64,000 bases of DNA from IMG/VR virus record IMGVR_UViG_3300005758_000037, positions 1 through 64,000 of that record, one strand, 5' to 3'. Under the pieces are notes generated by a model that worked only from the letters and a program-made list of their open reading frames with translations, made no database searches and was not told where the DNA came from. Positions 6,573 through 45,988 of this stretch are shown one piece after another. Position 1 is the first letter of the stretch, and each line of letters opens with the position of its first letter. This DNA is from a virus. The position numbers were made by a program, and so were the translations under genes.

Positions 6573-6601
6573 TTGAAAATATTATATTTCTATGATATAA
6601 T
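6573..6601 (+). promoter_or_regulatory. sigma70-type promoter with extended -10
   Basis: TTGAAA (6573-6578), 17-nt spacer, TGa-TATAAT (6593-6601). Confidence 0.6.
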
Positions 6602-6613
6602 GAAACTTAGCAG

Positions 6614-6645
6614 CCCTCCGGTCATCGGAGGGTCTTTATTTGTTT
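6614..6645 (+). terminator. intrinsic terminator hairpin 12 nt downstream of the promoter -10
   Basis: CCCTCCG-gtcat-CGGAGGG (6614-6632) followed by TCTTTATTTGTTT. Confidence 0.7.
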
Positions 6646-12027: not shown

Positions 12028-12056
12028 TTGATTTTCTTATAATTTTATGTTATAAT
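12028..12056 (+). promoter_or_regulatory. sigma70-type promoter with extended -10
   Basis: TTGATT (12028-12033), 17-nt spacer, TGt-TATAAT (12048-12056). Confidence 0.6.
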
Positions 12057-19103: not shown

Positions 19104-19114
19104 TAACTGACGTA

Positions 19115-19147
19115 AACCCGAGGGAGAAATCCTTCGGGTTTTTCTTT
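19115..19147 (+). terminator. intrinsic terminator
   Basis: AACCCGAGGG-agaaat-CCTTCGGGTT followed by TTTTCTTTGTTT. Confidence 0.75.
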
Positions 19148-19158
19148 GTTTACAACTC

Positions 19159-19187
19159 TTGATTTTATTTGTTATTTGTGCTATAAT
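19159..19187 (+). promoter_or_regulatory. sigma70-type promoter with extended -10
   Basis: TTGATT (19159-19164), 17-nt spacer, TGc-TATAAT (19179-19187). Confidence 0.6.
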
Positions 19188-24341: not shown

Positions 24342-27300
24342 ATGCAATTAGAAAAGTACATAGGCTTAAAATATAAAGAAAAAGGTAGAGACTTCGATGG
24401 AGTTGATTGTTGGGGATTGGTGCGCCTATTCTACAAAAATGAATTCAAGATCGATCTACCTAGCTTTAGCTCAGAATATACACAGACAGATGTTCAGCGT
24501 ATCGAAGAGCTAATTGCACAATACAAAGAAGGTTGGGAATCTAGCGAACAACCTGAAGAGGGTTCTATTGTACTTTTCAGAGTTCTTGGTTCAGAATCCC
24601 ACGTTGGTATTGTCGTAAACAAAGAACAATTCTTGCATGTTCGTGAAAACCAAGATAGTGCTATTGAGAATTTTGATTCTCCTTTTTGGAAAAAACGAAT
24701 TGTTGGATATTTTAAATATTCAGAAAATAAAAGTGTAGTATTAAATGCTGTTCCACATCCATTGAGAACAGAACGTTATACTATGCCTATTCTTCCCGGT
24801 ACAACACTTGATTTGTTAGCCAATGGATTAAACAAAGAATATGGTGTTGCTGAAGAATTAAAATCAAAAGTAAGTATTGTTTTAAATGGCAGAGTTATTG
24901 ACGAAAAAGATTGGTCATCTACAGTTCTAAAAGAAGGTGACACAGTAGAATATCGTGCTGTACCAAAAGGTTCGGCGGGTAGGATGCTTGCTTTATTGGC
25001 TTTAACTTATGTGGCCCCATATTTGGCAGGTTACGCTGAATTTGCGTACATGGGTACGGCTGGTGCAACTATTGCTGGTTCAACTGCTGTTTATGCTACA
25101 GCGTATGCGGCAACAATCTTAGTCGGTACAGCATTAATCAATGCTATTGCACCGATTCGTCCACCAGTAGATGCTGCTGGTAAAGACCCCGGTTCTGCTG
25201 AACGTCAATTAATGGTCAACGGAGGTTCTAACCGTCAAAACCCATATGGTTCAATTCCTGTTGTACTTGGTAAAGTTCGTGTAACACCTTTGCTTGGTTC
25301 TACAAATTATTTGACATATGAAAATGAACGTGATAGCTATGTTTCAATGCTATTGGTTTGGGGTTATGGTCCACTCAGTATTGATGCATCTACATTAAAA
25401 ATTGGTGATATTCCATTAACTAATTACACCGATTATAACATTATTACTCTTGATCGTAAGACAGAACCAACTATCACAGAGAAAAATGCATTCGATGCTA
25501 TCTATGGTAAAGATATTACACAGGTTCAAGTATCAACAGAATTGACTTGTGATGGCAACCCTGAAATTATTACAAGAAATTATTCAGGTATTCAAACTGT
25601 TGAAGGTGATCAAGAATCAGGATATTCAACTGTTCTTAATGTTAATTTCACAAATACAGTTAGTGGTCAGAATATTGAAGCAACATTTGTTTCCAATACA
25701 ACATCTTGGTCATTGTCCCATAATAATTTATCAAATGTAGTAATTACAAACATAAATTCTACAACTAAAAAAGTTACAGCAACAGTAAATGATAATTATA
25801 GTAATTTTGATAAAACATATTTAAAATATACTATTGATAGTGTTGCAACGGGTTCATATACTGCTACAGCATTCGGTGTTTCTCCCGGTCCTTGGTTACA
25901 AGCTGCTACAACTGAAAATGTAGACTCTTATACTGTGGCTTTGCACTTTCCACAAGGTTTACGTAGAATTAAAATAAAAGGTGATAATGCAGGTGATTCA
26001 TTTGCTGCATCAGTTCAGTTTAGAATTGAATATTCTACAAATAATGGTGCTACTTGGAATTTACAAGAAACATTAACCATTGGTGGCGATACACCTAAAA
26101 AGGATGGTTTTACTACAACTAAAACATATTCTTTCCCTTCCAAACCTGCTCAAATGATTGTACGGGTTAGAAGAGAAACAGGTGACAATACTGAAGATAA
26201 TCCTGACAATCGTTACTACTTTACCAGTGTATTACAAAACGTAACTTTTACTAGAAACGCAAATCCTGCTGTTGATCCATTAAATGCAAAAATTGCTAAA
26301 ACAGCATTTAAGATCAAAGCCACGGATCAATTGAACGGTAGAGTAGATGGTATTAGTGCAGTAGTTCAAACTTGGTGTAAAATATGGAATGGTTCTGCAT
26401 GGGTAGATGGTGCAACAAGTAACCCTGCTGCGCTGTTTAGATATGTTTTAGAACATCCAGCTAACCCAAGAAGAATAACCGATGCTTCTACACAGATCAA
26501 TCTTACACAATTACAATATTTCTATAACTATTGTGCGTCAAAAGGATTCGAATACAACTCTGTAATGGGTGATAGTCGGAGTGTTCTTGATGTATTGCGT
26601 GACATTTGTGCTGCTGGTCGAGCAAGTCCTGCTATTGTAGATGGTAAGTGGACAGTTGTTATCGATGAAGTGAAGCCAAACGTAATCCAGCATTTCACAC
26701 CACACAATAGTTGGGGTTTTGAAGGTAGCAAACCACTACCAAAGAAACCCGATGGTTTACGTGTAACTTACTTTGATCAGGATCAGGATTATCAGGAAAG
26801 TGAAATCATTGTATATGACATTGGTAAGAATGCATCAAATTCTACATTATTTGAAAGCATTACACTTCCGGGTGTAACTAAAAAATCATTAGTGATTGAT
26901 CATGCACGTTGGCATATGGCTCAAATAAAACTTCGTCCTGAAGTCTACACAGTCAATGCTGATATTGAATATCTCGTTTGCAATCGTGGTGATCGTGTGA
27001 AAGTAACCCATGATGTACCGATGTGGGGTCTTGGTAGCGGTCGAATCAAAAATCGAATCAGTGCGACTAAGTTTGAATTGGACGAAGAAATGCCAATGCA
27101 AGCGGGTAAGCAATATACAATACGCATTCGAAGTGTAGATGGCAGTTCTGTCGTTAGAACAGTAGTCACTAAAACCACTGATGGTTATTATAGTGAGATT
27201 GATCTTACCACATCTACTACTTCAACAGAAGTTCAATCTGGTGATCTATTCTTGTTTGGTGAATTGGGTCAAGAATCACAAGATTTAATTGTATTGAGTG

Positions 27301-29734: not shown

Positions 29735-30841
29735 ATGGCAGATCATTTAAAACCGACATTAACTAGCAATTACTCTAGTTTTGTAACGGAATTAGATGGG
29801 CGTTTTGATGATTTGACAGTGGGGCTTGACCCCGCTGTCACTACGGCAACAAACGTACCAACTAATTCTATTCGATGGAGTAGTGCTGTAAATAAATGGC
29901 AAAAGTACAATGGTACTTCTTGGGCAGATTTGACTGCTCTATATAATATCAGTATTTCAGGTAATGCTGCTACTGTAACCAATGGTGTTTATACTACTGG
30001 TTCATATGCTAACCCATCATGGATTACGTCTTTAGCTGGTTCTAAGATTACTGGTGATATTGCTGGTAATGCAGGTAGTGCTACTAGACTTGCTACCGCT
30101 AGAAACATTAACGGTGTTGCTTTCGATGGTACAGCAGCGATTAGTGTTAATCTAAATAACTCTGTAACATTTAATAATACTGGTACAGGTTCTACATCCG
30201 GTTCAACATTTAACGGTGGAACAGGTTTGACTGTAAGTTATAACACAATTGGCGCACCGAGTACGACTGGAGCTAACGCAAGTGGTACTTGGGGTATCTC
30301 AATCTCAGGTAATGCTGCTACTGTAACCAATGGTGTTTATAATAACGGTGGAACATATGGAATTAACATTTCAGGTAATGCTGCTACTGTAACCAATGGT
30401 GTTTATAATAACGGAGCTACTTATAATATTAATATTAGCGGTAATTCAAACTATGCCACTTCATCAGGATATGCTACTTCAGCAGGTAATGGTGGTGTGA
30501 CCAGTGTAAATTCTATAACAGGTTCTGTAGTTTTATCTAATCTGAGTGACTTTCAGAGAAGTTTAACAAACTACGGTTATCAAAAATTACCGGGTGGCAT
30601 GATTATTCAATGGGGTGTATATGATCATGGTTATTACAGTGGGAACCAATATGAAAACGGTCCAACGATATCATTTCCTATAAGTTTTCCAAATCAAATT
30701 AGGGTGATTACTCTTTCAACAGAAGGTACTCAATATACAGACTGGTCTTCTGAAACGAAAATATATTCTAAAGATAATTCTGGTTTTAAAATAACGGGAG
30801 ATGTGCGAAGATTTGTACATTGGATTGCAATTGGTAGTTAA
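29735..30841 (+). CDS. tail-fibre-like protein 3 with receptor-binding-type tip
   Basis: 368 aa with repeated ISGNAATVTNGVY units. The C-terminus (GYQKLPGGMIIQWG...FPISFPNQ...WIAIGS) is paralogous to the end of 9622..11616. Confidence 0.8.
   Translation: MADHLKPTLTSNYSSFVTELDGRFDDLTVGLDPAVTTATNVPTNSIRWSSAVNKWQKYNGTSWADLTALYNISISGNAATVTNGVYTTGSYANPSWITSLAGSKITGDIAGNAGSATRLATARNINGVAFDGTAAISVNLNNSVTFNNTGTGSTSGSTFNGGTGLTVSYNTIGAPSTTGANASGTWGISISGNAATVTNGVYNNGGTYGINISGNAATVTNGVYNNGATYNINISGNSNYATSSGYATSAGNGGVTSVNSITGSVVLSNLSDFQRSLTNYGYQKLPGGMIIQWGVYDHGYYSGNQYENGPTISFPISFPNQIRVITLSTEGTQYTDWSSETKIYSKDNSGFKITGDVRRFVHWIAIGS
30302..30433 (+). repeat. 66-bp tandem duplication inside fibre gene (2 full units + diverged third)
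   Basis: Units start at 30302 and 30368 and share an almost identical ~45-nt core, tcaggtaatgctgctactgtaaccaatggtgtttataataacgg. A further 40-nt copy of the core lies at 29954-29993. Confidence 0.85.
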
Positions 30842-30853: not shown

Positions 30854-30882
30854 TTGATTTTCATCAATAATTGTGATATAAT
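30854..30882 (+). promoter_or_regulatory. sigma70-type promoter with extended -10 upstream of lysis cassette
   Basis: TTGATT (30854-30859), 17-nt spacer, TGa-TATAAT (30874-30882). Confidence 0.6.
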
Positions 30883-30894
30883 TATACTTAACAC

Positions 30895-30925
30895 GCCTGT
30901 CTTATTAGCATAAGACGGGCTTTTT
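30895..30925 (+). terminator. strong intrinsic terminator 12 nt downstream of the promoter -10
   Basis: GCCTGTCTTAT-tagc-ATAAGACGGGC (11 bp, one G-U) followed by TTTTTATTTT. Confidence 0.8.
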
Positions 30926-30959
30926 ATTTTGTCAATTTATTAATTTAGCGGGTTATATT

Positions 30960-31217
30960 ATGTCAGTAGAATCTCATGGTGCGACAGCGTTTGATACAAC
31001 AATGGCTGCTATTGGCAGTAAAGCAACATATACTGGTGCGACCACAAGTGTTTTAGGGTGGATCATGTCTTCAGAATTTGGTGTATTAATCGGTATTATA
31101 CTTGGTGTCGGTGGTTTCTTAATTAATTGGTATTACAAGTACAAACAAGACAAGCGTGAGCAAGAACTGCACGATCAACGCATGAAAAATGAGGTTAAAC
31201 CTTTCGGTTTAGAATAA
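30960..31217 (+). CDS. holin
   Basis: 85 aa with two hydrophobic segments (..TTSVLGWIMSS / EFGVLIGIILGVGGFLINWYY) and a highly charged C-terminus. Immediately 5' of the endolysin. Confidence 0.65.
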   Translation: MSVESHGATAFDTTMAAIGSKATYTGATTSVLGWIMSSEFGVLIGIILGVGGFLINWYYKYKQDKREQELHDQRMKNEVKPFGLE

Positions 31218-31218
31218 C

Positions 31219-31692
31219 ATGATTAATCGTCAAGGTGTAGCTGCACTGGTATTGAGTGCGTCAGCTTTAATTGGAATTGCTGTTCACGAAGGTTATAGAG
31301 AAGAGGCGTATATTCCCGTACCCGGAGATGTGCCTACAATCGGTTTTGGCAGCACAACTAACCTTGATGGTAGTCCAGTACGTCTAGGTCAACGAACAAC
31401 GTCTGTAGAGGCTTTAAAGCGGCTTGGTAAGGATGTTGAGAAGTTTGAAACAGCAGTCAAAACCTGCGCTCCTGTTCCGATGTATCAATATGAATTTGAT
31501 GCTTACGTATCACTGACATACAACATTGGACCAAATGCATTCTGCAAAAGTACACTCGCTAAAAAATTAGTACAATATGATTATGAAGGAGCTTGCAAGG
31601 AAATTCTTCGTTGGGATAGATTTCAAGGTAAACCACTAAAAGGTTTAACAATTCGTAGACAAGAAGAATATAAAACTTGCATTGGAGAATGA
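31219..31692 (+). CDS. endolysin, lysozyme-like with SAR-type N-terminus
   Basis: EGYREEAYIPVPGDVPTIGFGST resembles the GH24 (T4/P21-type) lysozyme catalytic region. The N-terminal GVAALVLSASALIGIAV is a weakly hydrophobic Gly/Ala-rich signal-anchor-release-like segment. Confidence 0.78.
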   Translation: MINRQGVAALVLSASALIGIAVHEGYREEAYIPVPGDVPTIGFGSTTNLDGSPVRLGQRTTSVEALKRLGKDVEKFETAVKTCAPVPMYQYEFDAYVSLTYNIGPNAFCKSTLAKKLVQYDYEGACKEILRWDRFQGKPLKGLTIRRQEEYKTCIGE

Positions 31693-32171
31693 TGACTTGG
31701 CAAACTAAATTAATAGCAATATTGTTAGTAGTCGCTAGCTTATTTGCTTGGTATAAATATGAAGTTAATAAGGCAGTCAATAGAACCATTGCTGAACAAA
31801 CTGCTATTTATAAAAAGCAAGTTGATGAACTAACGATTAAAAGCCTAAAGGTTGAATCTGAATTAAAAACTCAGGTTTCAACAATCAAAGGAGAGAAAGA
31901 TGCTCAGATTAAAACTCTTGATACTAAGTATCGTATTGCTATTGACAGCTTGCGCCAGCGTCAAGAAAGAAGTTCCTCAAGCAATTCTACCGGAAATTCC
32001 TGTAATGCAGAAAGCACCAAAGGAGCTACTGGAGCAGAACTATATCGAGAAGATGCAGAGTTTCTTATCCGGTTCGCTAGAGACACAGAAGAACTTAAAA
32101 CGCAATTAAATGCATGTTATGCTCAATATGATATTGTATATGAGCAATTAAATAATTACAAATCCAAATAA
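31689..32171 (+). CDS. Rz: i-spanin (Rz-like)
   Basis: ATG at 31689 after GGAG. N-terminal TM (LIAILLVVASLFAWY) followed by a coiled-coil periplasmic domain. Last gene of the lysis cassette. Confidence 0.7.
   Translation: MMTWQTKLIAILLVVASLFAWYKYEVNKAVNRTIAEQTAIYKKQVDELTIKSLKVESELKTQVSTIKGEKDAQIKTLDTKYRIAIDSLRQRQERSSSSNSTGNSCNAESTKGATGAELYREDAEFLIRFARDTEELKTQLNACYAQYDIVYEQLNNYKSK
31900..32109 (+). CDS. Rz1: o-spanin (Rz1-like lipoprotein) embedded in the i-spanin gene
   Basis: +1-frame ORF wholly inside 31689..32171 with an AGGAG RBS. Signal peptide with lipobox LLLTAC and a Pro-rich mature part. Confidence 0.75.
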   Translation: MLRLKLLILSIVLLLTACASVKKEVPQAILPEIPVMQKAPKELLEQNYIEKMQSFLSGSLETQKNLKRN

Positions 32172-32221
32172 AAAGACCCCTGAGGGATTCCATTACGGTT
32201 TCCTTCAGGGGTTTTTCTTTT
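32171..32221. terminator. bidirectional terminator at convergence of late (+) and leftward (-) blocks
   Basis: CCCCTGAGGG (32177-32186) pairs with CCTTCAGGGG (32202-32211). A-run on the left and TTTTTCTTTTT on the right. Confidence 0.8.
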
Positions 32222-32223: not shown

Positions 32224-32466
32224 TTAAGCTACAAAATCTTTGAGTTGTTGTGCAGTCATTGCACCTGATTTGCGTTTAACAACTTGATTATCTTCGATTA
32301 GAAGCAATGTAGGTACACCAGTGATTGCGTACTCTTTTACTGCTTCCAAGTCTTCGTCTACGTCTACTGTCGATACTGGAATACCTAGATCGGTATTCGC
32401 TAAAACCATTGATAGACCTTTACATGGTTGACACCATGCAGCTTTAAACACTACTAGATTTTTCAT
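32224..32466 (-). CDS. thioredoxin-like protein
   Basis: 80 aa with the WCQPCK redox motif and a Trx-fold pattern (..GVPTLLL..). AAAGGAG RBS. Adjacent to the RNR genes. Confidence 0.85.
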   Translation of the reverse strand: MKNLVVFKAAWCQPCKGLSMVLANTDLGIPVSTVDVDEDLEAVKEYAITGVPTLLLIEDNQVVKRKSGAMTAQQLKDFVA

Positions 32467-32475
32467 ATTTCTCCT

Positions 32476-34176
32476 TTATTGACAAGCTTCACATTCACCT
32501 TTAGCAGCTTGTACGCCAGCCTGAGTGTAGATATAGTATAACGCAAGAATATTCGGATCAGCAAATGCTTCCTGATGAACTTCAGCAATCCATGCAGGGT
32601 CTTCATCGGCAGCAAAGAATAAATTCAAAGACTGCCACTGATCAATATAACGACTACGAGCAGATGCTAAACGTAGAACAGCTTTTTGGTTGATTTCAAA
32701 GGCTGTCTTAAATACAGCTTTCTCTTCGTCGGTCAACCAATCCACATGCTGAACAGAACCTTGTTTATCTGTAATTTCTTGAATGTGTTTCTTGGTGTAG
32801 ACACCTTTTTGTTTCATTAGCTCAAGTAGTACAGGATTCAAACGATCAACTTCACCAGCAGCGGTCATCTGAGTATAACTCATTGCAGGATCAGGATTGA
32901 TACCCTCAGATACACCACCCATTAGAAGTGCAGTGGATTTTGTTGGTGCAATAGCAATCAAATGTGTATTGCGAACACCGTAACCTTTACACCATTCTGG
33001 TTCACCTAATAGTTCAGCCATTCTTACCGTAGCAAGATTTGCATGTTCCCAAATCTTAGCTTGAATTGTTTGGCTTAGACTATGCGCTTGGAATCCTTCA
33101 AATGGCAGCATCTTTTGCATGAACAAAGTATGAATACCACACAGTCCAAGACCTAACGCTCGACCTTTTTCAGTGAATCGTACAGCTTTCTCTAAGCCGG
33201 GAACATTTTTAGCACGTTCAACAAATTCACTTGCTACACAGTCTAGGAAGATCGTTGCCCAATATGCAGCATTCGTATCTTTCCATTCATCCCACTTAGC
33301 AGCATTCATAGAAGATAGAACACAAGTATATGTATGTTCGTCATCATTGAATAGCATAATCTCTGAACATAGCTGAGAGTTGTTAATAAACAAATCCTTA
33401 TCACGGTACATAATCGGGCGTTTAGCGTTAGCTTTATCCACGAAGAAGAAGTACCCCTTACCAGTGACCATCTTGATCTTCATGGCCTTCTGGAAGCGTT
33501 CTAGAGCCTCTTGATCACCAGAGTTTAGACGGTCAATGAAAGTCTGCTTAATTGTCCATCCAATATTCAAATCATCGGGTTCAGCTAGGATGTGGTCAGC
33601 AACTTCGTTGAAATCACCGTGTTCAATATTTAGATAACATGCCCATGCACCACGACGAGCAGTGCCTTGTGCAATATTACGCATTGCATTTACGTGTTCT
33701 TTGATTACTGGTAGAACACCACTGGCCTTACCACCAATGCTAATCTTTGCACCACGAGGGCGAACATTACTTAGATCGGTAGCTGTACCAAAACCATACT
33801 TTGTTAGTAGTGCAACTTCACGTAGGTTACTGTAGAAACCATCTACAGAATCATCTGCGATAGTACCAGAGCAAGATACAGGCATACCACGGGAAGTACC
33901 CATGTTAGCAAGCACAGGAGTAGAAGGAGAGAGCCATCCTTTCCAAAGTAGGTTAAAGAACTCTTCTTCAGCTTCTGGTAGCATCGGCACATGCTTTGCA
34001 GCAGTTTTTGCAATACGCTCAAATTGACCACGAACTGAACGACCTTGTGTTTCATATTCGTACTTTTCTTTAAATAACTGATATCCAGCAGTGGTATACC
34101 ATTCAGGAACTAGACCTTGATTTTGGAATTCTTTACGTTCTTCACTTAATTTTTTATAAATATTTTCAATCATCAT
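32476..34176 (-). CDS. nrdA: ribonucleotide reductase class I alpha subunit
   Basis: 566 aa. Active-site NSQLCSEI (N-x-C-x-E), a conserved RNR core, and a C-terminal CEACQ redox pair. No ATP-cone-length N-terminus. Confidence 0.9.
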   Translation of the reverse strand: MMIENIYKKLSEERKEFQNQGLVPEWYTTAGYQLFKEKYEYETQGRSVRGQFERIAKTAAKHVPMLPEAEEEFFNLLWKGWLSPSTPVLANMGTSRGMPVSCSGTIADDSVDGFYSNLREVALLTKYGFGTATDLSNVRPRGAKISIGGKASGVLPVIKEHVNAMRNIAQGTARRGAWACYLNIEHGDFNEVADHILAEPDDLNIGWTIKQTFIDRLNSGDQEALERFQKAMKIKMVTGKGYFFFVDKANAKRPIMYRDKDLFINNSQLCSEIMLFNDDEHTYTCVLSSMNAAKWDEWKDTNAAYWATIFLDCVASEFVERAKNVPGLEKAVRFTEKGRALGLGLCGIHTLFMQKMLPFEGFQAHSLSQTIQAKIWEHANLATVRMAELLGEPEWCKGYGVRNTHLIAIAPTKSTALLMGGVSEGINPDPAMSYTQMTAAGEVDRLNPVLLELMKQKGVYTKKHIQEITDKQGSVQHVDWLTDEEKAVFKTAFEINQKAVLRLASARSRYIDQWQSLNLFFAADEDPAWIAEVHQEAFADPNILALYYIYTQAGVQAAKGECEACQ

Positions 34177-34675
34177 TTTCCTTAAAATTGTTAAATACCC
34201 ATTCTGCGAACAACATCAATTCTTCAACAGATGCGTTAGTTTTCATACTATTTGCAAGCTTTGATATGACCTGAATATTACCAACAACATATCCGAGTTC
34301 TGGAATTATTTTATCTAAGCTTGGTGAATTATTTAGAGCAATTCCATCGTTTACCTCTAACTTTATTTTTAAAATTGGACAGTATTCAGGAATATCAAAA
34401 TCATCAACTGTAATAGAAAATGGTAAATCGTTTTTCTTGGCCCTGTGTTTTGCGGTAGCTAACATATTTGCTTTTGGGTTATTTTTTCTTTTTATTTTGT
34501 TAGTACTTATTACTCTGTCTCTATTTTTAAGATACCATTCATATTTGCTCTTGTTGTTTTGTTTGTGTTTTTGGTGACAAGTTTTACAAGCGGAATATGG
34601 TTTATTGGTATCTTTTCTTAAATAAAACTCAGATATTAATTTTAACTCTCCACATTTTGAGCAGTATTTTTCCAT
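34166..34675 (-). CDS. homing-endonuclease-like protein, family B (HNH/EndoVII-superfamily-like)
   Basis: N-terminal CSKC...CKTC zinc ribbon and basic linker. C-terminal YCPILKIKL...NSPSLDKIIPELGYVVGNIQVISKLANSMKTNAS module shared with 37620..38180 and 40094..40534. Overlaps both the nrdB stop and the nrdA start. Confidence 0.75.
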   Translation of the reverse strand: MEKYCSKCGELKLISEFYLRKDTNKPYSACKTCHQKHKQNNKSKYEWYLKNRDRVISTNKIKRKNNPKANMLATAKHRAKKNDLPFSITVDDFDIPEYCPILKIKLEVNDGIALNNSPSLDKIIPELGYVVGNIQVISKLANSMKTNASVEELMLFAEWVFNNFKENDD

Positions 34676-37583: not shown

Positions 37584-37610
37584 AAAAAATCCCTACGACT
37601 GAGCGTAGGG
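37584..37610 (-). terminator. intrinsic terminator after homing-endonuclease gene (minus strand)
   Basis: Reverse complement reads CCCTACG-ctcagt-CGTAGGG followed by ATTTTTTGTT. Confidence 0.75.
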
Positions 37611-37619
37611 AGAATTATA

Positions 37620-38180
37620 TCAGATTTTATTGTATGTTTGCAATACCCATTCAGCAAATTTTAATAAATCTTCTGGCGTAGCATTACTTTTCATTGCATT
37701 TGCAAGTTGACTAATAATTTGAATATTGTCTTTAGTGTAACCTTTGTTTGGATCAATCCTATCGACGGAAGGGGAATTTTTTGTCACAGCACCATTTCCT
37801 TTTATTAAGGGAATACCTAGTATTGGACAAAAATCGGGGATAATAATATCTTCTTCTGTAAGATCGAATTCCAAAGAGTTTTTATTTGCCCTCTTTTTAC
37901 AACGAGCTACAATATAATGTTCATATTCTTTTTCGCATCTATCTCTGTAATATTTTGAACGATATTGCTTTTTCTTTTTTAAGACTTCTGGGTCATTTTT
38001 TGTTTTTTCATAGTATTGCCTAGATTTCTCAATTATTAATTCTTTATTTTCTGAATATCGTTGTAAATCATAATCTTTTCTACAAGATTTACATTCACTA
38101 CGATATCCTGTTTTTGAATTGGCTTTTCTATGAAAATTAGAAAAATCTAAAGTTTTATTACATTTTATACAAGTTAACAT
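37620..38180 (-). CDS. homing-endonuclease-like protein, family B
   Basis: ATG at 38180 four nt after AGGAGG. CIKC...CKSC zinc ribbon and basic linker. FCPILGIPLIKGNG...NSPSVDRIDPNKGYTKDNIQIISQLANAMKSNAT module. Confidence 0.8.
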   Translation of the reverse strand: MLTCIKCNKTLDFSNFHRKANSKTGYRSECKSCRKDYDLQRYSENKELIIEKSRQYYEKTKNDPEVLKKKKQYRSKYYRDRCEKEYEHYIVARCKKRANKNSLEFDLTEEDIIIPDFCPILGIPLIKGNGAVTKNSPSVDRIDPNKGYTKDNIQIISQLANAMKSNATPEDLLKFAEWVLQTYNKI

Positions 38181-38199
38181 ATGGCCTCCTAATGAATTT

Positions 38200-38228
38200 A
38201 TTATATCATAATTTGGCCGAAAAATCAA
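38200..38228 (-). promoter_or_regulatory. sigma70-type promoter with extended -10 (minus strand)
   Basis: Reverse complement reads TTGATT (38228-38223), 17-nt spacer, TGa-TATAAT (..38200). Confidence 0.6.
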
Positions 38229-39605: not shown

Positions 39606-40101
39606 TAGTTATTTCTCCTATGAATGTCCGAATTGTATCATAGTCGTAGTTCTTTGTCAAGATACCCTTTTGAAACAATCGTTTGCGTTCTGCATCGTTT
39701 TTACCTTTTTCTAAACCCATACGTTCTAATACTCTATCTTTTTGTGAACTCTTAAGTTTATTAAAAGCAGTGTTAATCTTTTTAATCCACATATCGTGTC
39801 GCCATCTAGTATCTGGTTCTCTTTCGAGATAATTAGCACACTGTCTCAAAAAATCACTGAGAGTTCCTTTATACCACCATTTCATGTACCTAATCCACAT
39901 TTTTTCAATAACTCCAAGCGCACTATTAGCTTGCCTACTCGTTACACCACGAATATACATTTGATCATCATGTGCATGTTCAAGAATGTGTTGTTTTGGT
40001 TCAATGGGGAGATTTGTTATGGCGCACAGATTATTTTGTTCTTTGGTGAGAAATTCTCTAACTTCTTTTTTATCAGAGGTTGTGTATAAGTCTCTAGTCA
40101 A
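39595..40101 (-). CDS. endonuclease VII-like protein (degenerate Zn ligands), tentative resolvase
   Basis: LCAITNLPIEPKQHILEHAHDDQMYIRGVTSRQANSALG parallels the C..C...DHDH.TG..RG..C..CN..LG core of T4 endo VII-type nucleases, but several cysteines are replaced. Confidence 0.45.
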   Translation of the reverse strand: MTRDLYTTSDKKEVREFLTKEQNNLCAITNLPIEPKQHILEHAHDDQMYIRGVTSRQANSALGVIEKMWIRYMKWWYKGTLSDFLRQCANYLEREPDTRWRHDMWIKKINTAFNKLKSSQKDRVLERMGLEKGKNDAERKRLFQKGILTKNYDYDTIRTFIGEITNED

Positions 40102-40534
40102 GATAATTCTCCAATACCCATATTGAAAACAAAATCATTTCATCTTTTGTAGCATTAGATTTCATTGTGTTTGCTTTAAAACTTATTACTTGAATATTCT
40201 CTTTTATGTATCCTAATTCTGGAATTATTCTATCCAAACTCGGTGAATTGGCTGTTGGTCTACCAGAACCTTTAAATAAAGGAATTCCCAATATTTTACA
40301 ATATTTAGGTATCACAACATCTGAAATTTCTATATCAAATGGTAAATTAAATTTCAAAGCTCTATCTTTAGCACTTTGCCATAAAATTCTTTCTGGATTT
40401 GATTTTTTATTGTCTAAATTAATTTTATTCAGTTTTTCTTTATTTAATAAATAATAATTTCTAGCATATTCTTTTGCCTTTTCTTTATACTTTTCTCTAT
40501 AAATCTTTTGATAGTCTTTTTGATTAAAACTCAT
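40094..40534 (-). CDS. homing-endonuclease-like protein, family B (lacks N-terminal zinc ribbon)
   Basis: YCKILGIPLFKGSGRPTANSPSLDRIIPELGYIKENIQVISFKANTMKSNAT module and an N-terminal K/E/Y-rich basic region. Confidence 0.75.
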   Translation of the reverse strand: MSFNQKDYQKIYREKYKEKAKEYARNYYLLNKEKLNKINLDNKKSNPERILWQSAKDRALKFNLPFDIEISDVVIPKYCKILGIPLFKGSGRPTANSPSLDRIIPELGYIKENIQVISFKANTMKSNATKDEMILFSIWVLENYLD

Positions 40535-40973: not shown

Positions 40974-41947
40974 ATTGCGATCTTTCTTTCGTCCATGAAA
41001 TCATAAATATCACTAGGGTCTTTCCAGCTTCGTTTCATGTAAGCACATTGCCAATACATTTGTAGCATCTTCTGCCAAGTACCTTCCTGTTCAACACCGT
41101 GACAATCTGTATAAGCGAATGGTTGAGGATAGAGGCGCTTAAATTCACTGAACAGTACCTGCATAACGTCTTGCTCTGTTCGTGCGTCCTGAAGGGCTTT
41201 CATGGCCTTTGCTGGACCGTATTTAACTTCAGACAGATCGTAACCACAATAAGTATCGGCTGTATCACCAGCTAAGACTTGCAGTGCTAGGAACTTTAGA
41301 CCAGTACCTTTTACGGTCTGCTTGTCTTTGTACAGTTCACCAACATCTGGAATGACCTCAAGCTTCCAATCGTCTTTTTCATACAACCAGTTAAAAATCG
41401 TAACACCTTGACATTGATAGCTGTCTTTGTCAACACTACACAATACAGCTTCTCTGTTTGCGTTCAAGTACTCATATGCTCGGATAGTTACAACATCATC
41501 AACTTCATAGTCTGTTACAATTTGCGCCCCGTACTTTTTACGCATGTGATTTCTTGTTGCTTCAAGATGCACAGGTTTAATCATATCAGCACGATTGCTT
41601 TTATAGGGTTTTGGTAGTGCTAATCTATGTCTGAATGTCTCTCCACCACCTAAATAGACTTCAACATTATCACACCAAGTAAACTTCTGAATACTTTCCA
41701 TGAACTTGTTCACTGTGCTTAGTGCAATTGATACATCTACTTCCTTTTGAACATCTTCAATTTCGTAATCATCTGGATTGAATTCAAACCCTTTGTCAAT
41801 TACGAATTTCTTTAGTTCTGTACGATTCTTGAATTCTTTAGTATTGCCTGATTTTTTAATGGTAGCAATGATTGACCTTTGTTCAGCACCAGCAGCGAAT
41901 CTGTAGGCTATTAAGTCGCCATCTACGATTAGTGTTCTGTCACTCAT
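40970..41947 (-). CDS. 5'-3' exonuclease (T7 gp6-like/FEN-type)
   Basis: Motif series LIVDGDLIAYR, YKSNR, EVDDVV, SVDKDSYQ, AGDTADTYCG as in T7 gene 6-type exonucleases. Confidence 0.75.
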   Translation of the reverse strand: MSDRTLIVDGDLIAYRFAAGAEQRSIIATIKKSGNTKEFKNRTELKKFVIDKGFEFNPDDYEIEDVQKEVDVSIALSTVNKFMESIQKFTWCDNVEVYLGGGETFRHRLALPKPYKSNRADMIKPVHLEATRNHMRKKYGAQIVTDYEVDDVVTIRAYEYLNANREAVLCSVDKDSYQCQGVTIFNWLYEKDDWKLEVIPDVGELYKDKQTVKGTGLKFLALQVLAGDTADTYCGYDLSEVKYGPAKAMKALQDARTEQDVMQVLFSEFKRLYPQPFAYTDCHGVEQEGTWQKMLQMYWQCAYMKRSWKDPSDIYDFMDERKIAI

Positions 41948-42349: not shown

Positions 42350-42568
42350 TTAACTACGAGCTACATCAATGGTTTCGATAATCTCATTACTCTTTTTCTT
42401 GAGGTCATCGACTTTATTGCTAACGATTGCTTTGGCTACTGCCGAAAGGATCGCTGGTTCCAAACCAGATTCTTTAGCTTCAGTTTTGATTTCTTTAATC
42501 TGTTCAGCAAGTGATTGCTCTTCAGAATAAAGACGTACTAGTTTTGCGATTGCTTCTTTCTTTTGCAT
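42350..42568 (-). CDS. GapR/DUF2312-like small DNA-binding protein (tentative)
   Basis: 72 aa. ...EEQSLAEQIKEIKTEAKESGLEPAILSAVAKAIV... parallels the ...EEKK.l.ddiKevyaEAKg.GfD.kalr.vi.lRk signature. Confidence 0.45.
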   Translation of the reverse strand: MQKKEAIAKLVRLYSEEQSLAEQIKEIKTEAKESGLEPAILSAVAKAIVSNKVDDLKKKSNEIIETIDVARS

Positions 42569-43523: not shown

Positions 43524-43600
43524 TGGTGGGACCAACTGGATTCGAACCAGTGACCAACCGATTATGAGTCGGCTGCTACTTACCACTGAGCTATAGTCCC
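43524..43600 (-). tRNA. tRNA with CAT anticodon (Met or Ile2)
   Basis: Sense strand GGGACTA-TA-GCTCAGTGGTAAGTAGC-A-GCCGA-CTCATAA-TCGGT-TGGTC-ACTGG-TTCGAAT-CCAGT-TGGTCCC-A-CCA. Canonical cloverleaf. Confidence 0.85.
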
Positions 43601-43606
43601 ACTTGA

Positions 43607-43960
43607 TTAAACTCGTGCAAATTTAGTAACTTGTACTTGTCGTGGCTCAACGAAGAACCATTCTTCATATTCTGAACCGTTGTATGATTCATACCAACCA
43701 TCAAACTGCACATATAGACTTTCAGTGCTAGTAAAGAACTTATATACAGACCAGTATTCCCGACCCATTTCTTCACCACCATAATTATCTACATGTTCAA
43801 AACTTACATTAGCATCAGATAGTTTCTTTCGGAAATCTGTTACTTTGTCAGAATCCCATCTGGTATTTTCAGTAAGTTCTGAATGAAAAAACTCATGAAT
43901 AATATCTGAATCTGCTTCATTTAGAAGATCGGTTACTTTTTGTTTTAAAGACATGTTCAA
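43607..43960 (-). CDS. hypothetical protein, paralogue of 43966..44463
   Basis: The C-terminal YVQFDGWYESYNGSEYEEWFFVEPRQVQVTKF aligns with YIRINCHYSSYNGNEYSNWSFVKPTEITCKVF of the neighbouring gene. Confidence 0.65.
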   Translation of the reverse strand: MNMSLKQKVTDLLNEADSDIIHEFFHSELTENTRWDSDKVTDFRKKLSDANVSFEHVDNYGGEEMGREYWSVYKFFTSTESLYVQFDGWYESYNGSEYEEWFFVEPRQVQVTKFARV

Positions 43961-43965
43961 TCCTT

Positions 43966-44463
43966 TCAGGGTTTATATGCTGAAAATACCTTGCAGGTAA
44001 TTTCTGTTGGTTTAACAAAAGACCAGTTGCTATATTCATTACCATTATAAGATGAGTAATGACAATTAATACGAATATAACCTTTTACGTCAGTTCCTTC
44101 ATATACAGCAAATACTGTATAAACAGGATATTCGCTTAGATCATATGAATCTACAAGACTATTCGTTTGACCTTGATTATACAGGTCATTGTCAAACGTA
44201 GAAGAATCATATGAAACTCTTAGATTTACGTCAGCTAGAGCAGTATTGATCTTGTCTTCGAAATCATTTTCTGGTTTGTGACCAATGAAACCAACAGCAA
44301 TATCATTTGAATTATATTTTACATACTCATTGAATGCAGTCTTAAAACGTTCATGCCATGATAGAGAATTACGAAGTTGTTTAATCTTATCTTGTGCTTC
44401 TTTTTGAATCTTAGCGATCTGTTCTTCAACAGTCAATTCAGTCGTGGATTTAGTTCGTGCCAT
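43966..44463 (-). CDS. hypothetical protein, paralogue of 43607..43960
   Basis: ATG at 44463 with an AAAGGAA RBS. Shares the C-terminal G/C.Y.SYNG.EY..W.FV.P motif. Confidence 0.65.
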   Translation of the reverse strand: MARTKSTTELTVEEQIAKIQKEAQDKIKQLRNSLSWHERFKTAFNEYVKYNSNDIAVGFIGHKPENDFEDKINTALADVNLRVSYDSSTFDNDLYNQGQTNSLVDSYDLSEYPVYTVFAVYEGTDVKGYIRINCHYSSYNGNEYSNWSFVKPTEITCKVFSAYKP

Positions 44464-45262
44464 TTTCAAGTTCCTTTCTAATGTTCTCAAACCTCATTGT
44501 ATCACACAAATCGAATACCTGAGGATAATAATCAATTGCCCAATCTCTGAACCAACCGCTACATAATGTAGTACATACTTTATCTAGTGCTTTGATGTAT
44601 GCATGTCGTACTGGATATTGCCAGTCTCTAGGTACAAGAAAACGCTCGATAGCAATGACTTGTGTTTCTTCAGCTACGCATTTGATTTTATCGTCTGTTG
44701 ACAGCTTATCCCACAAATCTTTGTCACACCATGCGCTACTTGGATCACGCTGAAGTTGAGTATACAACGGTTTGTCGTGATATGCAACAAGTTCGTGCAA
44801 ATAATCATGATTATATTTCTTAGTCACATAATCATCAAAGAAATCGTCAACTGACTTTTTCAAACTAGGGTGACCTTGTGGAAATTCTTTCATTGTCATT
44901 TCAATGCGTTGCTGCAAAAATCCTTTATCTGCAACAGACAGGTTGATACACTTGTATTTTTCAGGAATGTATTTGTGATAGTGCGTGATGTGTTTCTGAA
45001 AGCTCAGATTACGCCACAAATGACTACGTTTGATAATTGACAAACCACGCAAATTCATTACGTTTAGTTCATGACCATTGAAGTTTACTTTATGATGTGA
45101 ACCATAATAAAATGCAAGTTTAGCATTATTCAGAAATTTAGGATCGTGCCATTCAGAACCTTCGATTGGTTCATCACTGATGATATCCCAATCAGTAGTA
45201 TCCTTGATTTTTAATTCAGGATTCCAATATGCTAATGCTCGTGAACCAATCAAAACTTTCAT
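44450..45262 (-). CDS. hypothetical protein with possible minimal nucleotidyltransferase motif
   Basis: ATG at 45262 with an AAGGAAAG RBS; the longer ORF-track start runs into a tRNA-like gene. The N-terminal MKVLIGSRALAYWNPELKIKDTTDWDIISD resembles hG[GS]-x(n)-D-x-D of Pol-beta-type NTases. Lies immediately 3' of the tRNA island. Confidence 0.6.
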   Translation of the reverse strand: MKVLIGSRALAYWNPELKIKDTTDWDIISDEPIEGSEWHDPKFLNNAKLAFYYGSHHKVNFNGHELNVMNLRGLSIIKRSHLWRNLSFQKHITHYHKYIPEKYKCINLSVADKGFLQQRIEMTMKEFPQGHPSLKKSVDDFFDDYVTKKYNHDYLHELVAYHDKPLYTQLQRDPSSAWCDKDLWDKLSTDDKIKCVAEETQVIAIERFLVPRDWQYPVRHAYIKALDKVCTTLCSGWFRDWAIDYYPQVFDLCDTMRFENIRKELENGTN

Positions 45263-45275
45263 GACTTTCCTTATT

Positions 45276-45358
45276 TGGTGTGTATTACGGGATTCGAACC
45301 CGCATCTCAAGGTCATTAGCCCTGCGTCATGATGCCCTAACATTTAGACCAAATACAC
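45276..45358 (-). tRNA. non-canonical tRNA-like gene 1 (isotype unresolved; possible AAT anticodon)
   Basis: Sense strand has a perfect 7-bp acceptor GTGTATT/AATACAC, T-arm GCGGG-TTCGAAT-CCCGT and A + CCA. The D/anticodon region is about 6-7 nt too long. Candidate arm: CAGGG-CTAATGA-CCTTG. Confidence 0.5.
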
Positions 45359-45391
45359 GTTGTTCAATATACTGAAGTGTACCACTGAAAT

Positions 45392-45906: not shown

Positions 45907-45981
45907 TGGTGCGACTAGATGGAATCGAACCACCATTCAGTGCTTAGAAGGCACTTGCATTCTCCGTTATACTATAGTCGC
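45907..45981 (-). tRNA. tRNA-Arg (anticodon TCT)
   Basis: Sense strand GCGACTA-TA-GTAT-AACGGAGA-ATGC-A-AGTGC-CTTCTAA-GCACT-GAAT-GGTGG-TTCGATT-CCATC-TAGTCGC-A-CCA. Confidence 0.85.
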
Positions 45982-45988
45982 AATATTC

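What the first reader, a model, noticed from the sequence alone, without database searches (positions are those of the whole stretch)
30854..30925. Consensus promoter followed 12 nt later by a strong terminator, directly upstream of the lysis cassette (pR'-tR'-like unit)
After the fibre gene stop (30841) the order is as follows. First comes TTGATT-N17-TGa-TATAAT (30854-30882). Then come 12 nt, an 11-bp hairpin GCCTGTCTTAT/ATAAGACGGGC with a TTTTTATTTT tail (30895-30930), and holin at 30960. A transcript started here would meet an intrinsic terminator within about 40 nt. In lambdoid phages the late promoter pR' is followed by tR', and lysis and late genes are expressed only when the Q antiterminator modifies RNA polymerase at the promoter. 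The same architecture, with the same 12-nt spacing and a shared ACTTAnCA motif after the -10, recurs at 6573-6645. This argues for a designed regulatory unit rather than a chance juxtaposition. No Q-like gene is recognisable in the window, so the antitermination factor (protein or RNA) would be new or located elsewhere.
Basis: partly seen in the sequence, partly recalled or inferred. Interest (0 to 1): 0.7.

Follow-up and report, generated by a model that had tools for sequence, protein, structure and literature searches.

The report
Conserved promoter-then-terminator unit before lysis genes
A near-perfect promoter followed about 11 bases later by a transcription terminator sits just upstream of the lysis genes in this freshwater phage and its relatives, so it is a real, selected throttle on lysis-gene transcription, but nothing shows it is a lambda-style switch opened by a phage factor.

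Summary
TTGATT-N17-TGaTATAAT (30854-30882) is followed after 12 nt by an 11-bp hairpin (30895-30920) and a T-tract. The unit lies between the tail-fibre gene and the holin/endolysin/spanin cassette. A second unit lies at 6573-6645.

Comparison with Limnohabitans phage DC31 and over 200 metagenomic loci shows a conserved architecture:
- Lysis junction: 32 of 38 distinct lineages have a promoter, and in all 32 a hairpin with a T-tract follows it. None has the reverse order or one element alone.
- Spacing: of 57 promoter-to-terminator units, 52 have a gap of 9-14 nt (mode 11).
- Stems differ between lineages and covary.
- Controls: the tail-gene junction is terminator-then-promoter in 10 of 10 lineages, and the head-gene junction is never promoter-then-terminator.

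The order is therefore junction-specific and selected, and the terminator is meant to act on the adjacent promoter's own transcripts.

The lambda Q analogy is only partly supported. I found no Q, AlpA or other antiterminator family, no conserved binding or pause element, and the ACTTAnCA motif is absent from relatives. Two other late promoters have no terminator. Factor-independent precedents exist (E. coli greA leader; 5'UTR terminators in Pseudomonas phages).

Best reading: a leaky leader terminator that also ends the tail operon. Regulated antitermination remains a live rival.

The parts
29735..30841 (+). Tail-fibre gene, the last gene of the tail operon that starts at promoter 19159. Its transcripts have no terminator other than the 30895 hairpin.
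   Evidence: ORF. PHROG tail-fibre and virion structural families. No other terminator-like site between 30841 and 30960.
30854..30882 (+). Sigma-70-type extended -10 promoter: -35 TTGATT (30854-30859), 17-nt spacer, TGa (30874-30876), -10 TATAAT (30877-30882).
   Evidence: Orthologous promoters with the same -35, spacing and -10 occur in DC31 and in 32 of 38 related lineages.
30883..30894 (+). AT-rich 12-nt segment holding the predicted transcription start, about 30889-30891 (7-9 nt after the -10). This gives a 4-6 nt unpaired 5' leader. The start site is inferred, not measured.
   Evidence: using the general rule for sigma-70 start sites (own knowledge). The sequence is not conserved in relatives.
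30895..30920 (+). Terminator hairpin: 11-bp stem (one G.U pair), loop TAGC.
   Evidence: -16.1 kcal/mol, z = -3.15. The same position in relatives holds stems of different sequence but similar stability.
30921..30930 (+). T-tract TTTTTATTTT. RNA release is predicted at about 30927-30929, giving a terminated RNA of about 37-41 nt.
   Evidence: A T-tract follows the stem in all 57 units. The release point is inferred from the usual 7-9 nt rule (PMC2836576 introduction).
30931..30959 (+). Remaining 5' UTR of the holin gene, with only a weak Shine-Dalgarno-like GGG at 30950-30952.
30960..32171 (+). Lysis cassette served by the unit: holin 30960-31217, endolysin 31219-31692, Rz-like spanin 31677-32171.
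32177..32221 (.). Bidirectional terminator region closing the lysis transcription unit, between it and the convergent minus-strand genes.
   Evidence: CCCCTGAGG ... CCTTCAGGGG followed by TTTTTCTTTTT; the minus-strand counterpart is listed.
6573..6645 (+). Second unit of the same kind: TTGAAA-N17-TGaTATAAT (6573-6601), 11 nt, hairpin 6613-6633, then CTTTATTTGTTT. It lies upstream of gene 6678-7034 and a cluster of fibre-like genes.
   Evidence: Close relatives L088-90 keep it. A homologous unit family (TTGAAT ... ACCCCG/CGGGGT ... TATTGTTGTT) occurs in 18 lineages including DC31 8618, with covarying stems.
19114..19187 (+). Contrast junction in the opposite order: terminator 19114-19141, then 17 nt, then promoter TTGATT-N17-TGcTATAAT 19159-19187, before the tail genes.
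   Evidence: The terminator-then-promoter order holds in 10 of 10 distinct related lineages.
12028..12056 (+). Contrast promoter of the same class (TTGATT-N17-TGtTATAAT) before the head genes, with no hairpin after it.
   Evidence: Relatives have a promoter only, or terminator-then-promoter, and never promoter-then-terminator.

Best explanation
The unit is a composite junction in which one intrinsic terminator does two jobs.
1. It ends the long tail and tail-fibre operon coming from upstream.
2. It prematurely terminates most transcripts started at the adjacent consensus extended -10 promoter, about 35-40 nt after they start.

Only the fraction of polymerases that read through the hairpin transcribes holin, endolysin and spanin. 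The cassette is therefore insulated from heavy late structural transcription and expressed at a throttled level from a promoter that is itself very strong. Placing the hairpin as close to the start site as promoter melting allows (stem beginning at about +4 to +6) keeps the discarded RNA as short as possible and frees polymerase quickly.

Shown:
- the promoter and terminator motifs;
- their strict order and spacing;
- stem covariation;
- the junction-specific conservation of order;
- the absence of any other promoter for the lysis genes.

Inferred:
- the start site;
- that the hairpin terminates in the host;
- that read-through is partial and constant rather than switched on by a phage factor.
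For: Motifs and fold.

The unit is conserved as a unit.
- DC31 has the same layout at its lysis junction: promoter 58140, gap 11, hairpin 58100-58079.
- Of 38 distinct upstream regions of the cassette's first gene, 32 have the promoter, and all 32 have a hairpin with a T-tract after it. None has the reverse order, a promoter only or a terminator only.
- Of 93 distinct TTGnnn-N17-TGnTATAAT promoters in all held sequence, 57 are followed by a local terminator. 52 of those have gaps of 9-14 nt, with a mode of 11.

Structure, not sequence, is kept.
- At least six unrelated stem classes occur at the lysis junction.
- In the 18-sequence orthologous family, 90.9% of cells are paired against 28-65% for slid controls. 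Two pairs show compensatory changes (C-G x14 / U-A x3; A-U / G-U / C-G).

The order is selected, not a habit of the clade. The tail junction is terminator-then-promoter in 10 of 10 lineages, and the head junction is never promoter-then-terminator.

There is no room for a cis antiterminator. The leader before the stem is only 4-6 nt, and the fold shows one hairpin.

Precedents for factor-independent leader termination this close to a promoter:
- greA/GraL: 11-bp stem, 40-60 nt RNAs, about 60-66% termination in vivo and in vitro, stem conserved by compensatory changes (PMC2836576).
- 42 terminators inside 5'UTRs directly after promoters in virulent Pseudomonas phages, giving a dominant short RNA plus read-through mRNA (PMC10914365).

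No known antiterminator family was found. The genes behind promoter-then-terminator units are low-copy or dose-sensitive (lysis; fibre-like genes with conserved N-termini and variable C-termini). The head operon, including the major capsid and tail-tube genes, follows a promoter with no terminator.
Against: - No transcript data exist. The start site, the termination efficiency and its constancy are all unmeasured.
- By E. coli criteria the window's terminator looks strong (11-bp stem, 9 T in 10). A strong terminator in front of an essential cassette is exactly what an antitermination system would use.
- A weak promoter would throttle expression more simply, so the design may have a further purpose.
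- About 20 window proteins and many DC31 early proteins have no recognisable family, so an unknown factor cannot be excluded.
- The tail operon behind the terminator-then-promoter junction also encodes low-copy proteins, so the stoichiometry argument is imperfect.
- The host polymerase (a betaproteobacterium, by analogy with DC31) has not been studied.
Confidence: 0.5

Rival explanations
1. Regulated antitermination, which is the reader's model in a broader form. The promoter fires from the start of infection, but nearly all transcripts stop at the hairpin. Later, a phage-made factor renders polymerase terminator-resistant and switches the lysis cassette on. The factor could load at the promoter like Q or AlpA, or modify polymerase globally like P23-45 gp39.
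For: - The architecture and position are the same as lambda pR'-tR' before the lysis genes (own knowledge).
- The terminator is strong-looking and read-through is obligatory for an essential function.
- The exclusive promoter-then-terminator order means the terminator is meant to act on this promoter's transcripts.
- All late-strand promoters are extended -10 with a weak -35. That is the promoter class left active by phage factors that block -35 recognition, and one such factor, gp39, also antiterminates (PMC3351154 abstract).
- About half of the lysis promoters carry a TTGAT-N4-ATCAA palindrome over the -35 that could be a protein site.
- Many small early proteins have unknown function.
Against: - No Q, AlpA, N or other antitermination family was found in the window or in the DC31 early region that the window lacks.
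- The palindrome is missing from the other half of the lineages and cannot be separated from shared ancestry.
- No -10-like pause element sits at a consistent position in the early transcribed region.
- ACTTAnCA is not conserved.
- The head and tail operons use the same promoter class with no terminator behind it, so this could not be the general early-to-late switch.
- The same unit precedes fibre-like genes, which have no obvious need for extra delay.
Confidence: 0.27
2. The short terminated RNA, about 37-41 nt and consisting of a 5' leader, the hairpin and a U tail, is itself the selected product. It would be made in large amounts from a consensus promoter, for example as a decoy or sponge for an RNA-binding host protein. 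Lysis-gene expression would then be a by-product of leakage.
For: - A strong promoter placed immediately before a terminator is how small RNAs are made.
- Abundant short 5'UTR RNAs from the same layout are seen in Pseudomonas phages and were proposed as ncRNA candidates (PMC10914365).
- GraL overexpression has fitness effects (PMC2836576).
- The hairpin energies fall in a narrow band, about -14 to -18 kcal/mol.
- In the second unit family the leader AGTTTACAAAT and the tail TTATTGTTGTTT are nearly invariant while the promoter spacer varies.
Against: - At the lysis junction neither the leader, the stem nor the loop sequence is conserved between lineages, so there is no sequence-specific target.
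- The RNA would contain little beyond a generic terminator.
- No Rfam family matches above noise.
- The units always sit immediately before genes that have no other promoter, which points to a cis role.
Confidence: 0.08
3. The hairpin serves only the upstream operon as its terminator and serves the downstream mRNA as a 5'-end stabiliser. Polymerases started at the adjacent promoter largely ignore it, so there is no real attenuation.
For: - The hairpin is the only terminator for the tail-fibre operon.
- The stem starts only a few nt from the predicted 5' end in 52 of 57 units, reminiscent of protective 5' stem-loops (own knowledge: ompA, T7 gene 10 leaders).
- Elsewhere in these genomes, promoters are placed so that their transcripts escape a terminator: window 37643 and L120 with a 2-nt gap, and 48890, where the start falls in the T-tract.
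Against: - RppH and RNase E need only 2 or more unpaired 5' nt and prefer 3 or more (PMC8833179), and RNase E bypasses simple stem-loops (PMC9943677). The predicted 4-6 nt leader would therefore not protect the mRNA.
- Four lineages have gaps of 17-39 nt.
- The full hairpin and T-tract are within the transcript, and termination at +40-60 works for E. coli polymerase.
- If escape were the aim, the gap-2 or embedded layouts that these phages use elsewhere would be expected here, or the terminator-then-promoter order. Neither is seen in 32 lineages.
Confidence: 0.1

Closest known systems
Lambda-type late unit: pR' promoter, tR' terminator and Q antiterminator upstream of the lysis genes (own knowledge; related AlpA system in PMC9371919)
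   Same: A strong, apparently constitutive sigma-70 promoter is followed by an intrinsic terminator before the first lysis gene. Downstream genes can be expressed only by read-through.
   Different: - The terminator is much closer. The stem starts at about +5 and the RNA is about 40 nt, against 194 nt for lambda 6S RNA (own knowledge).
- There is no Q or AlpA homologue, no conserved binding element and no consistent -10-like pause element.
- The unit serves only a 1.3-kb lysis cassette in a virulent-type genome, not the whole late operon.
- Other late operons have promoters without terminators.
E. coli greA leader terminator and GraL RNAs (PMC2836576)
   Same: Strong promoters are followed within tens of nt by an 11-bp-stem intrinsic terminator in the leader. 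The terminated RNAs are very short (40-60 nt) and the rest read through into the gene. The stem is conserved by compensatory changes. No cis antiterminator is present.
   Different: GraL is cellular rather than phage-borne. The unit here also serves as the terminator of an upstream operon. The spacing to the promoter is even shorter and tightly conserved. The termination efficiency here is unknown.
Terminators inside 5'UTRs directly after promoters in virulent Pseudomonas phages, found by ONT-cappable-seq (PMC10914365)
   Same: This is a phage-encoded promoter followed at once by a terminator. The outputs are a dominant short RNA plus a longer read-through mRNA, and the mechanism of read-through is unknown.
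   Different: Those were found experimentally and give RNAs of about 70-250 nt in unrelated phages. Here there are no transcript data, but there is deep comparative evidence for fixed order, spacing of about 11 nt and junction specificity, and the predicted RNA is about 40 nt.
Thermus phage P23-45 gp39: inhibitor of -35-dependent initiation that also antiterminates (PMC3351154, abstract)
   Same: It would fit a genome whose late promoters are extended -10 type and whose late genes lie behind intrinsic terminators.
   Different: No gp39-like protein was identified. The promoters here also keep a partial -35 (TTGATT). This is a functional analogy only.

Membership tests
Sigma-70 extended -10 promoter | -35 TTGnnn, 17-nt spacer, TGn, and a -10 matching TATAAT | tested here: met
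   30854-30882 matches 10 of 12 hexamer positions plus TG. The exact pattern occurs 6 times in the window against 0.11 expected.
Sigma-70 extended -10 promoter | Conserved at orthologous positions in relatives | tested here: met
   DC31 58140 and 32 of 38 lineages at the lysis junction.
Sigma-70 extended -10 promoter | Mapped transcription start about 7 nt after the -10 | not testable with these tools
   No transcript data are available. The start is predicted at 30889-30891.
Intrinsic (Rho-independent) terminator | GC-rich stem, short loop, and a U-tract immediately 3' of the stem | tested here: met
   11-bp stem, 4-nt loop, TTTTTATTTT. -16.1 kcal/mol, z = -3.15.
Intrinsic (Rho-independent) terminator | Pairing maintained by evolution (covariation) | tested here: met
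   Different stems occupy the same place across lineages. In alignment A1, 90.9% of cells are paired and two pairs show compensatory changes, well above the slid controls.
Intrinsic (Rho-independent) terminator | RNA release at the U-tract | not testable with these tools
   Needs Term-seq or in vitro transcription.
Lambda-type Q (or AlpA) antitermination unit | Promoter followed by a terminator upstream of the late or lysis genes | tested here: met
Lambda-type Q (or AlpA) antitermination unit | A Q-family or AlpA-family protein encoded by the phage | tested here: not met
   No such family was found with PHROGs (60 window proteins), Pfam (30 window proteins) or PHROGs on 20 DC31 proteins from the region missing from the window. 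Caveat: many small proteins have no family at all.
Lambda-type Q (or AlpA) antitermination unit | A conserved factor-binding DNA element in or next to the promoter | tested here: inconclusive
   A TTGAT-N4-ATCAA palindrome overlaps the -35 in the window and in about half of the lineages. It is absent from the rest, and the whole spacer is similar in those that have it, so shared ancestry cannot be excluded.
Lambda-type Q (or AlpA) antitermination unit | A -10-like element in the early transcribed region causing a sigma-dependent pause | tested here: not met
   -10-like hexamers (TATACT, TATCAT, AATCAT) occur 0-2 nt after the -10 in many units. That places them mostly upstream of the predicted start, at no fixed position, and they are absent from several lineages.
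Lambda-type Q (or AlpA) antitermination unit | Read-through depends on the factor | not testable with these tools
   Needs reporter or infection time-course experiments.
Constitutive leader terminator (greA/GraL-like attenuator) | A strong promoter with an intrinsic terminator within about 60 nt of the start, before the first gene | tested here: met
Constitutive leader terminator (greA/GraL-like attenuator) | No alternative (antiterminator) RNA structure available | tested here: met
   Only 4-6 nt precede the stem, and the fold of 30890-30962 shows a single stable hairpin.
Constitutive leader terminator (greA/GraL-like attenuator) | A constant, partial termination fraction | not testable with these tools
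   Needs quantitative transcript mapping.
Protective 5'-terminal stem-loop | Fewer than about 2-3 unpaired nt at the 5' end | tested here: not met
   The predicted leader is 4-6 nt here and about 3-6 nt in most units, and the promoter-to-stem gap is 17-39 nt in four lineages. RppH and RNase E act with 2 or more unpaired nt and prefer 3 or more (PMC8833179). This depends on the predicted start site.

The most novel reading that the evidence does not exclude
The unit is an on-switch for lysis in a virulent-type freshwater phage, worked by an antitermination factor of a new kind (protein or RNA). The factor must act on polymerase within the first 35 nt or so of transcription, without a Q or AlpA homologue, a recognisable binding element or a pause signal. 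The same factor would also open the second unit in front of the fibre-like genes.
Probability: 0.25. Interest if true: 0.7.

Novelty: new variant of a known kind. Interest (0 to 1): 0.45.

Why it matters
It shows that in a whole clade of uncultured freshwater phages, plus the cultured Limnohabitans phage DC31, lysis genes are reached only by reading through a terminator placed at the very start of the transcript. The order of promoter and terminator is a selected, junction-specific property rather than an accident of tight packing.

That gives a simple, testable handle on lysis timing and gene dosage in phages that use only host polymerase. It also offers a comparative rule, promoter-then-terminator with a gap of about 11 nt, for finding such throttles in metagenomic phage genomes. 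DC31 provides a cultured system in which the choice between constant attenuation and a new antitermination factor can be settled. The short, strong promoter-terminator modules could also serve as compact expression-tuning parts.

Tried and rejected
1. ACTTAnCA as a functional motif. It is present at the same offset in both window units but absent from all relatives, including L088 (85% protein identity in the adjacent gene). Rejected as coincidence.
2. Known antiterminators. PHROGs and Pfam screens of 60 non-structural window proteins (Pfam on 30 of these and related ORFs) and 20 DC31 proteins found none.
3. Known RNA families. Rfam at gathering threshold finds only tRNAs. Permissive scans of both units give only sub-threshold hits typical of any terminator.
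4. Cis riboswitch or attenuator with an alternative structure. The leader is too short and there is a single hairpin.
5. 5' stabiliser as the main role. Weakened by the RppH and RNase E requirements and by the long-gap lineages.
6. Relic of a deleted moron, or chance. Rejected by conservation of order, spacing and pairing in dozens of lineages.
7. Palindrome over the -35 as an operator, and tandem -10-like hexamers as a pause signal. Neither is consistent across lineages.
8. The first automated classification of units, using global minimum-energy folds, mis-scored many units because of long-range pairs. It was replaced by a local stem-loop and T-tract detector.
9. The search with the central tail-fibre protein reached only 5 close relatives. 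The cassette's first gene from DC31 was a much better anchor.
10. A megablast of the region against cultured phages found only the ribonucleotide reductase gene of DC31.

Full report
**1. What is in the window.** The window is an AT-rich (37.6% GC) phage genome segment.
- The plus strand from about 0.9 to 32.2 kb carries packaging, fibre-like, head, tail and lysis genes.
- The minus strand from 32.2 to 55.5 kb carries nucleotide-metabolism and replication genes.
- The plus strand from 55.6 kb onward carries further nucleotide-metabolism and small genes of unknown function, probably expressed early.

The nearest cultured relative is Limnohabitans phage DC31 (PQ492658). Its large terminase is 63% identical in protein and the genome is syntenic.

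The finding lies in the 118-nt gap between the tail-fibre gene (stop at 30841) and the holin gene (ATG at 30960). Endolysin and an Rz-like spanin follow, and a bidirectional terminator at 32177-32221 closes the unit.

**2.
- TTGATT (30854-30859), a 17-nt spacer ending in TGa, and TATAAT (30877-30882) form a near-consensus extended -10 promoter.
- Twelve nt later comes an 11-bp hairpin (30895-30920, one G.U pair, loop TAGC), followed by TTTTTATTTT.
- Folded from the predicted start, the leader forms only this hairpin: -16.1 kcal/mol, z = -3.15.
- The second site exists at 6573-6645, with 11-nt rather than 12-nt spacing.
- The exact promoter pattern occurs six times in the window against 0.11 expected, always in front of genes.
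- Two strong promoters ending 9-14 nt before strong terminators are observed where 0.01 is expected.

**3. The unit is conserved as an architecture.** DC31 has the same layout at its own lysis junction: TTGATT-N17-TGaTATAAT, 11 nt, TAGGTCACC/ttcg/GGTGGCCTA, then TTTTCATTT. It also has a second unit at 8618.

Using the endolysin, the holin and the first cassette gene of DC31 as anchors, I collected related metagenomic loci.
- Among 38 distinct upstream regions of the cassette's first gene, 32 carry the promoter.
- In all 32, a hairpin with a T-tract follows it.
- None shows the reverse order, a promoter alone or a terminator alone.
- The other six have no intergenic spacer at all.

The stems fall into at least six unrelated sequence classes with similar predicted stability, about -14 to -18 kcal/mol in the 13 units folded individually.

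Over all held sequence, 93 distinct promoters match TTGnnn-N17-TGnTATAAT, and 57 are followed by a local terminator. The gap between the -10 and the first paired base is 9-14 nt in 52 of them, with a mode of 11. The exceptions are one of 2 nt, three of 17-20 nt and one of 39 nt.

The second unit belongs to a family of 18 alignable sequences. Its stem is paired in 90.9% of cells, against 28-65% when the partner is slid. Two pairs show compensatory changes. This unit is patchy and mobile relative to genes. It lies before the homologue of gene 5085 in DC31 and most relatives, but after that gene in the window and its closest relatives.

**4. The order is junction-specific.** This is the most informative result.
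- The window's other late junctions differ: terminator-then-promoter before the tail genes (19114-19141, then 19159-19187), and a promoter with no terminator before the head genes (12028).
- In relatives, the tail junction is terminator-then-promoter in 10 of 10 distinct lineages.
- The head junction is a promoter alone or terminator-then-promoter, never promoter-then-terminator.

If the hairpin existed only to end the upstream operon and the promoter only to start the next one, terminator-then-promoter would be the better order. It would protect the promoter from incoming polymerases and lose no transcripts. Its complete absence at the lysis junction means the terminator is selected to act on the adjacent promoter's own transcripts. 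No other promoter lies between the T-tract and the holin gene, so the lysis genes can be expressed only by read-through. The same holds for genes 9616-12010, which lie behind the terminator at 9577.

**5. How it most likely works.** The start site is predicted 7-9 nt after the -10 (about 30889-30891; inference from the general rule).
- The stem would then begin at about +4 to +7.
- The whole hairpin lies within the transcript.
- Release is expected in the T-tract at about +37 to +41.

The 4-6 nt leader leaves no room for a competing RNA structure. Any modulation must therefore come from the polymerase or a trans factor, or there is none.

Termination this close to a promoter is known to work without factors. 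The greA leader terminator of E. coli has an 11-bp stem, yields 40-60 nt RNAs, and stops about 60-66% of transcripts both in vivo and with pure polymerase, at a constant level through growth (PMC2836576). In virulent Pseudomonas phages, 42 terminators lie in 5'UTRs directly after promoters and give a dominant short RNA plus read-through mRNA (PMC10914365).

I therefore favour a leaky leader terminator that doubles as the terminator of the tail operon. It insulates the lysis cassette from heavy late transcription and passes a small fraction of initiations from a very strong promoter.

The tight gap is explained if the hairpin is placed as close to the start as promoter melting allows, which minimises wasted RNA and polymerase time. 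This step is an inference.

The genes behind such units are dose-sensitive or low-copy: the lysis genes, and fibre-like proteins whose N-termini are conserved and C-termini variable. The major capsid and tail-tube genes lie behind a promoter with no terminator. The match to expected dosage is suggestive but not perfect.

The resemblance to pR'-tR' before the lysis genes is real, and a strong-looking terminator in front of an essential cassette is what an antitermination system would use.

No defining feature beyond the layout could be confirmed.
- No Q, AlpA, N or other antitermination family was found among 60 non-structural window proteins (PHROGs), 30 proteins that were unknown or only weakly matched (Pfam), or 20 proteins from the DC31 early region that the window lacks.
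- No sequence element is conserved across lineages in the spacer or the early transcribed region.
- The ACTTAnCA motif is missing from all relatives.
- -10-like hexamers occur right after the -10 in many units but at no consistent position.
- A TTGAT-N4-ATCAA palindrome over the -35 is present in about half of the lineages and may simply be inherited.
- Two late promoters of the same class have no terminator, so antitermination could at most gate the lysis and fibre-like modules.

Many small early proteins remain uncharacterised. A global polymerase modifier like gp39 of Thermus phage P23-45 (PMC3351154) would leave no DNA signature. I therefore keep this rival at about one chance in four.

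**7. Other readings.**
- A protective 5' stem-loop is unlikely to be the main role. RppH and RNase E act on ends with two or more unpaired nucleotides and prefer three or more, and RNase E steps over simple stem-loops (PMC8833179, PMC9943677). Four lineages also have much longer leaders.
- The short RNA as a functional product cannot be excluded. At the lysis junction nothing but the generic terminator shape is conserved, and Rfam finds no family.
- Chance, or a relic of a deletion, is excluded by the comparative data.

**8. Comparison and novelty.**
- As a kind of element, this is a promoter-proximal intrinsic terminator. That kind is already known from lambda-type late units, from the greA leader, and from recent phage transcriptomes.
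- It is not shown to be a member of the Q-type family: one defining feature is met, two are not, one is inconclusive and one is untestable here.
- Four features are new: the extremely short and conserved spacing; the fact that one hairpin serves two transcription units; the strict junction-specific order across a clade; and the position before the lysis cassette of a phage with no recognisable antiterminator.

I rate it a new variant of a known kind, of moderate interest. It would become considerably more interesting if read-through proves to be switched by a new factor. DC31 and its host make that experiment feasible.

Noticed in passing
window 48853-48890 (minus strand); DC31 41624-41668 (plus strand): A promoter-like site, TTGACA-N17-TGaTAGACT, has a spacer that is itself the stem of a 13-bp terminator hairpin, so the predicted start falls in the T-tract. 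Terminator and promoter are superimposed between the primase/helicase and DNA polymerase genes. The sequence is nearly identical in DC31.
   Followed up: partly
window 37590-37643 (minus strand); L120 minus strand near 662; DC31 51382-51463: Here a promoter (TTGCAA-N18-TGaTATAAT) ends only 2 nt before a terminator hairpin. The start would fall inside the 5' arm, so its transcripts should escape the terminator. The same 2-nt layout with a different stem occurs in L120. DC31 has a promoter-like site 24 nt before its hairpin.
   Followed up: partly
window 9421-9449 and 9577-9594: A near-consensus promoter-like site lies inside ORF 7285-9567, 127 nt before a bidirectional hairpin (GGGCGGT/tttt/ACCGCCC). 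Both are conserved in DC31 (4856 and 4695-4678) and L090. However, the site encodes a conserved fibre peptide (LTSYATGDILYASGTNTLAKL), so the conservation may be at the protein level. Genes 9616-12010 have no promoter after this terminator.
   Followed up: partly
window 1402-1893, 34166-34675, 37620-38228, 40094-40534, 50610-51143: Five free-standing HNH / endonuclease VII-like (homing-endonuclease-type) genes. The one at 37620-38228 has its own TTGATT-N17-TGaTATAAT promoter (38228-38200) and is absent from the orthologous site in DC31.
   Followed up: partly
window 30854-30867: The palindrome TTGAT-N4-ATCAA overlaps the -35 of the lysis promoter. It is present in DC31 (as TTGA-N6-TCAA) and about half of the related lysis promoters, but not in the other TTGATT promoters of the window. 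It may be a protein-binding site or just shared ancestry.
   Followed up: partly
window 5085-6563, 7285-9567, 9616-11616 versus DC31: These large proteins share only their N-terminal parts with the DC31 homologues (for example residues 1-68 at 82% and residues 3-44 at 81%), and the rest diverges. That is the pattern of modular receptor-binding fibres. They lie between the portal and head genes, behind the second promoter-terminator unit.
   Followed up: no
window 81-705 (plus strand) and 43527-46066 (minus strand): Ten tRNA genes in two clusters. The one at 45279-45358 overlaps the start of ORF 44450-45343.
   Followed up: no
window 63317-63931; DC31 25946-26488: A second endolysin-like or transglycosylase-like gene (phrog_938) lies far from the lysis cassette and is conserved in DC31.
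   Followed up: no
window 32274-33000 versus DC31 55309-56040: The ribonucleotide reductase large-subunit gene was the only stretch of the 29-33 kb query similar enough to DC31 for megablast (82% nucleotide identity). It is much closer than the surrounding genes, hinting at strong constraint or recent exchange.
   Followed up: no
window 30907-30935 (minus strand): An antisense promoter-like site (TTGACA-N17-TATGCT) overlaps the hairpin and T-tract and points back into the fibre gene. The TTGACA is not present in relatives, so it is probably chance.
   Followed up: partly
window 42350-42568 (minus strand) and 60699-61106 (plus strand): A GapR-like DNA-binding protein (Pfam PF10073, above cut-off) and an HU-like protein (PF00216, above cut-off). 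These were the only recognisable DNA-binding regulators among the small genes.
   Followed up: no
L175-L180, about 14 nt after the tail-junction promoter: In one sub-clade the terminator-then-promoter tail junction also has a weak GC hairpin (for example GGGGTTAACCCC) followed by an AT-rich stretch after the promoter. This may be an incipient or decayed promoter-then-terminator unit.
   Followed up: no
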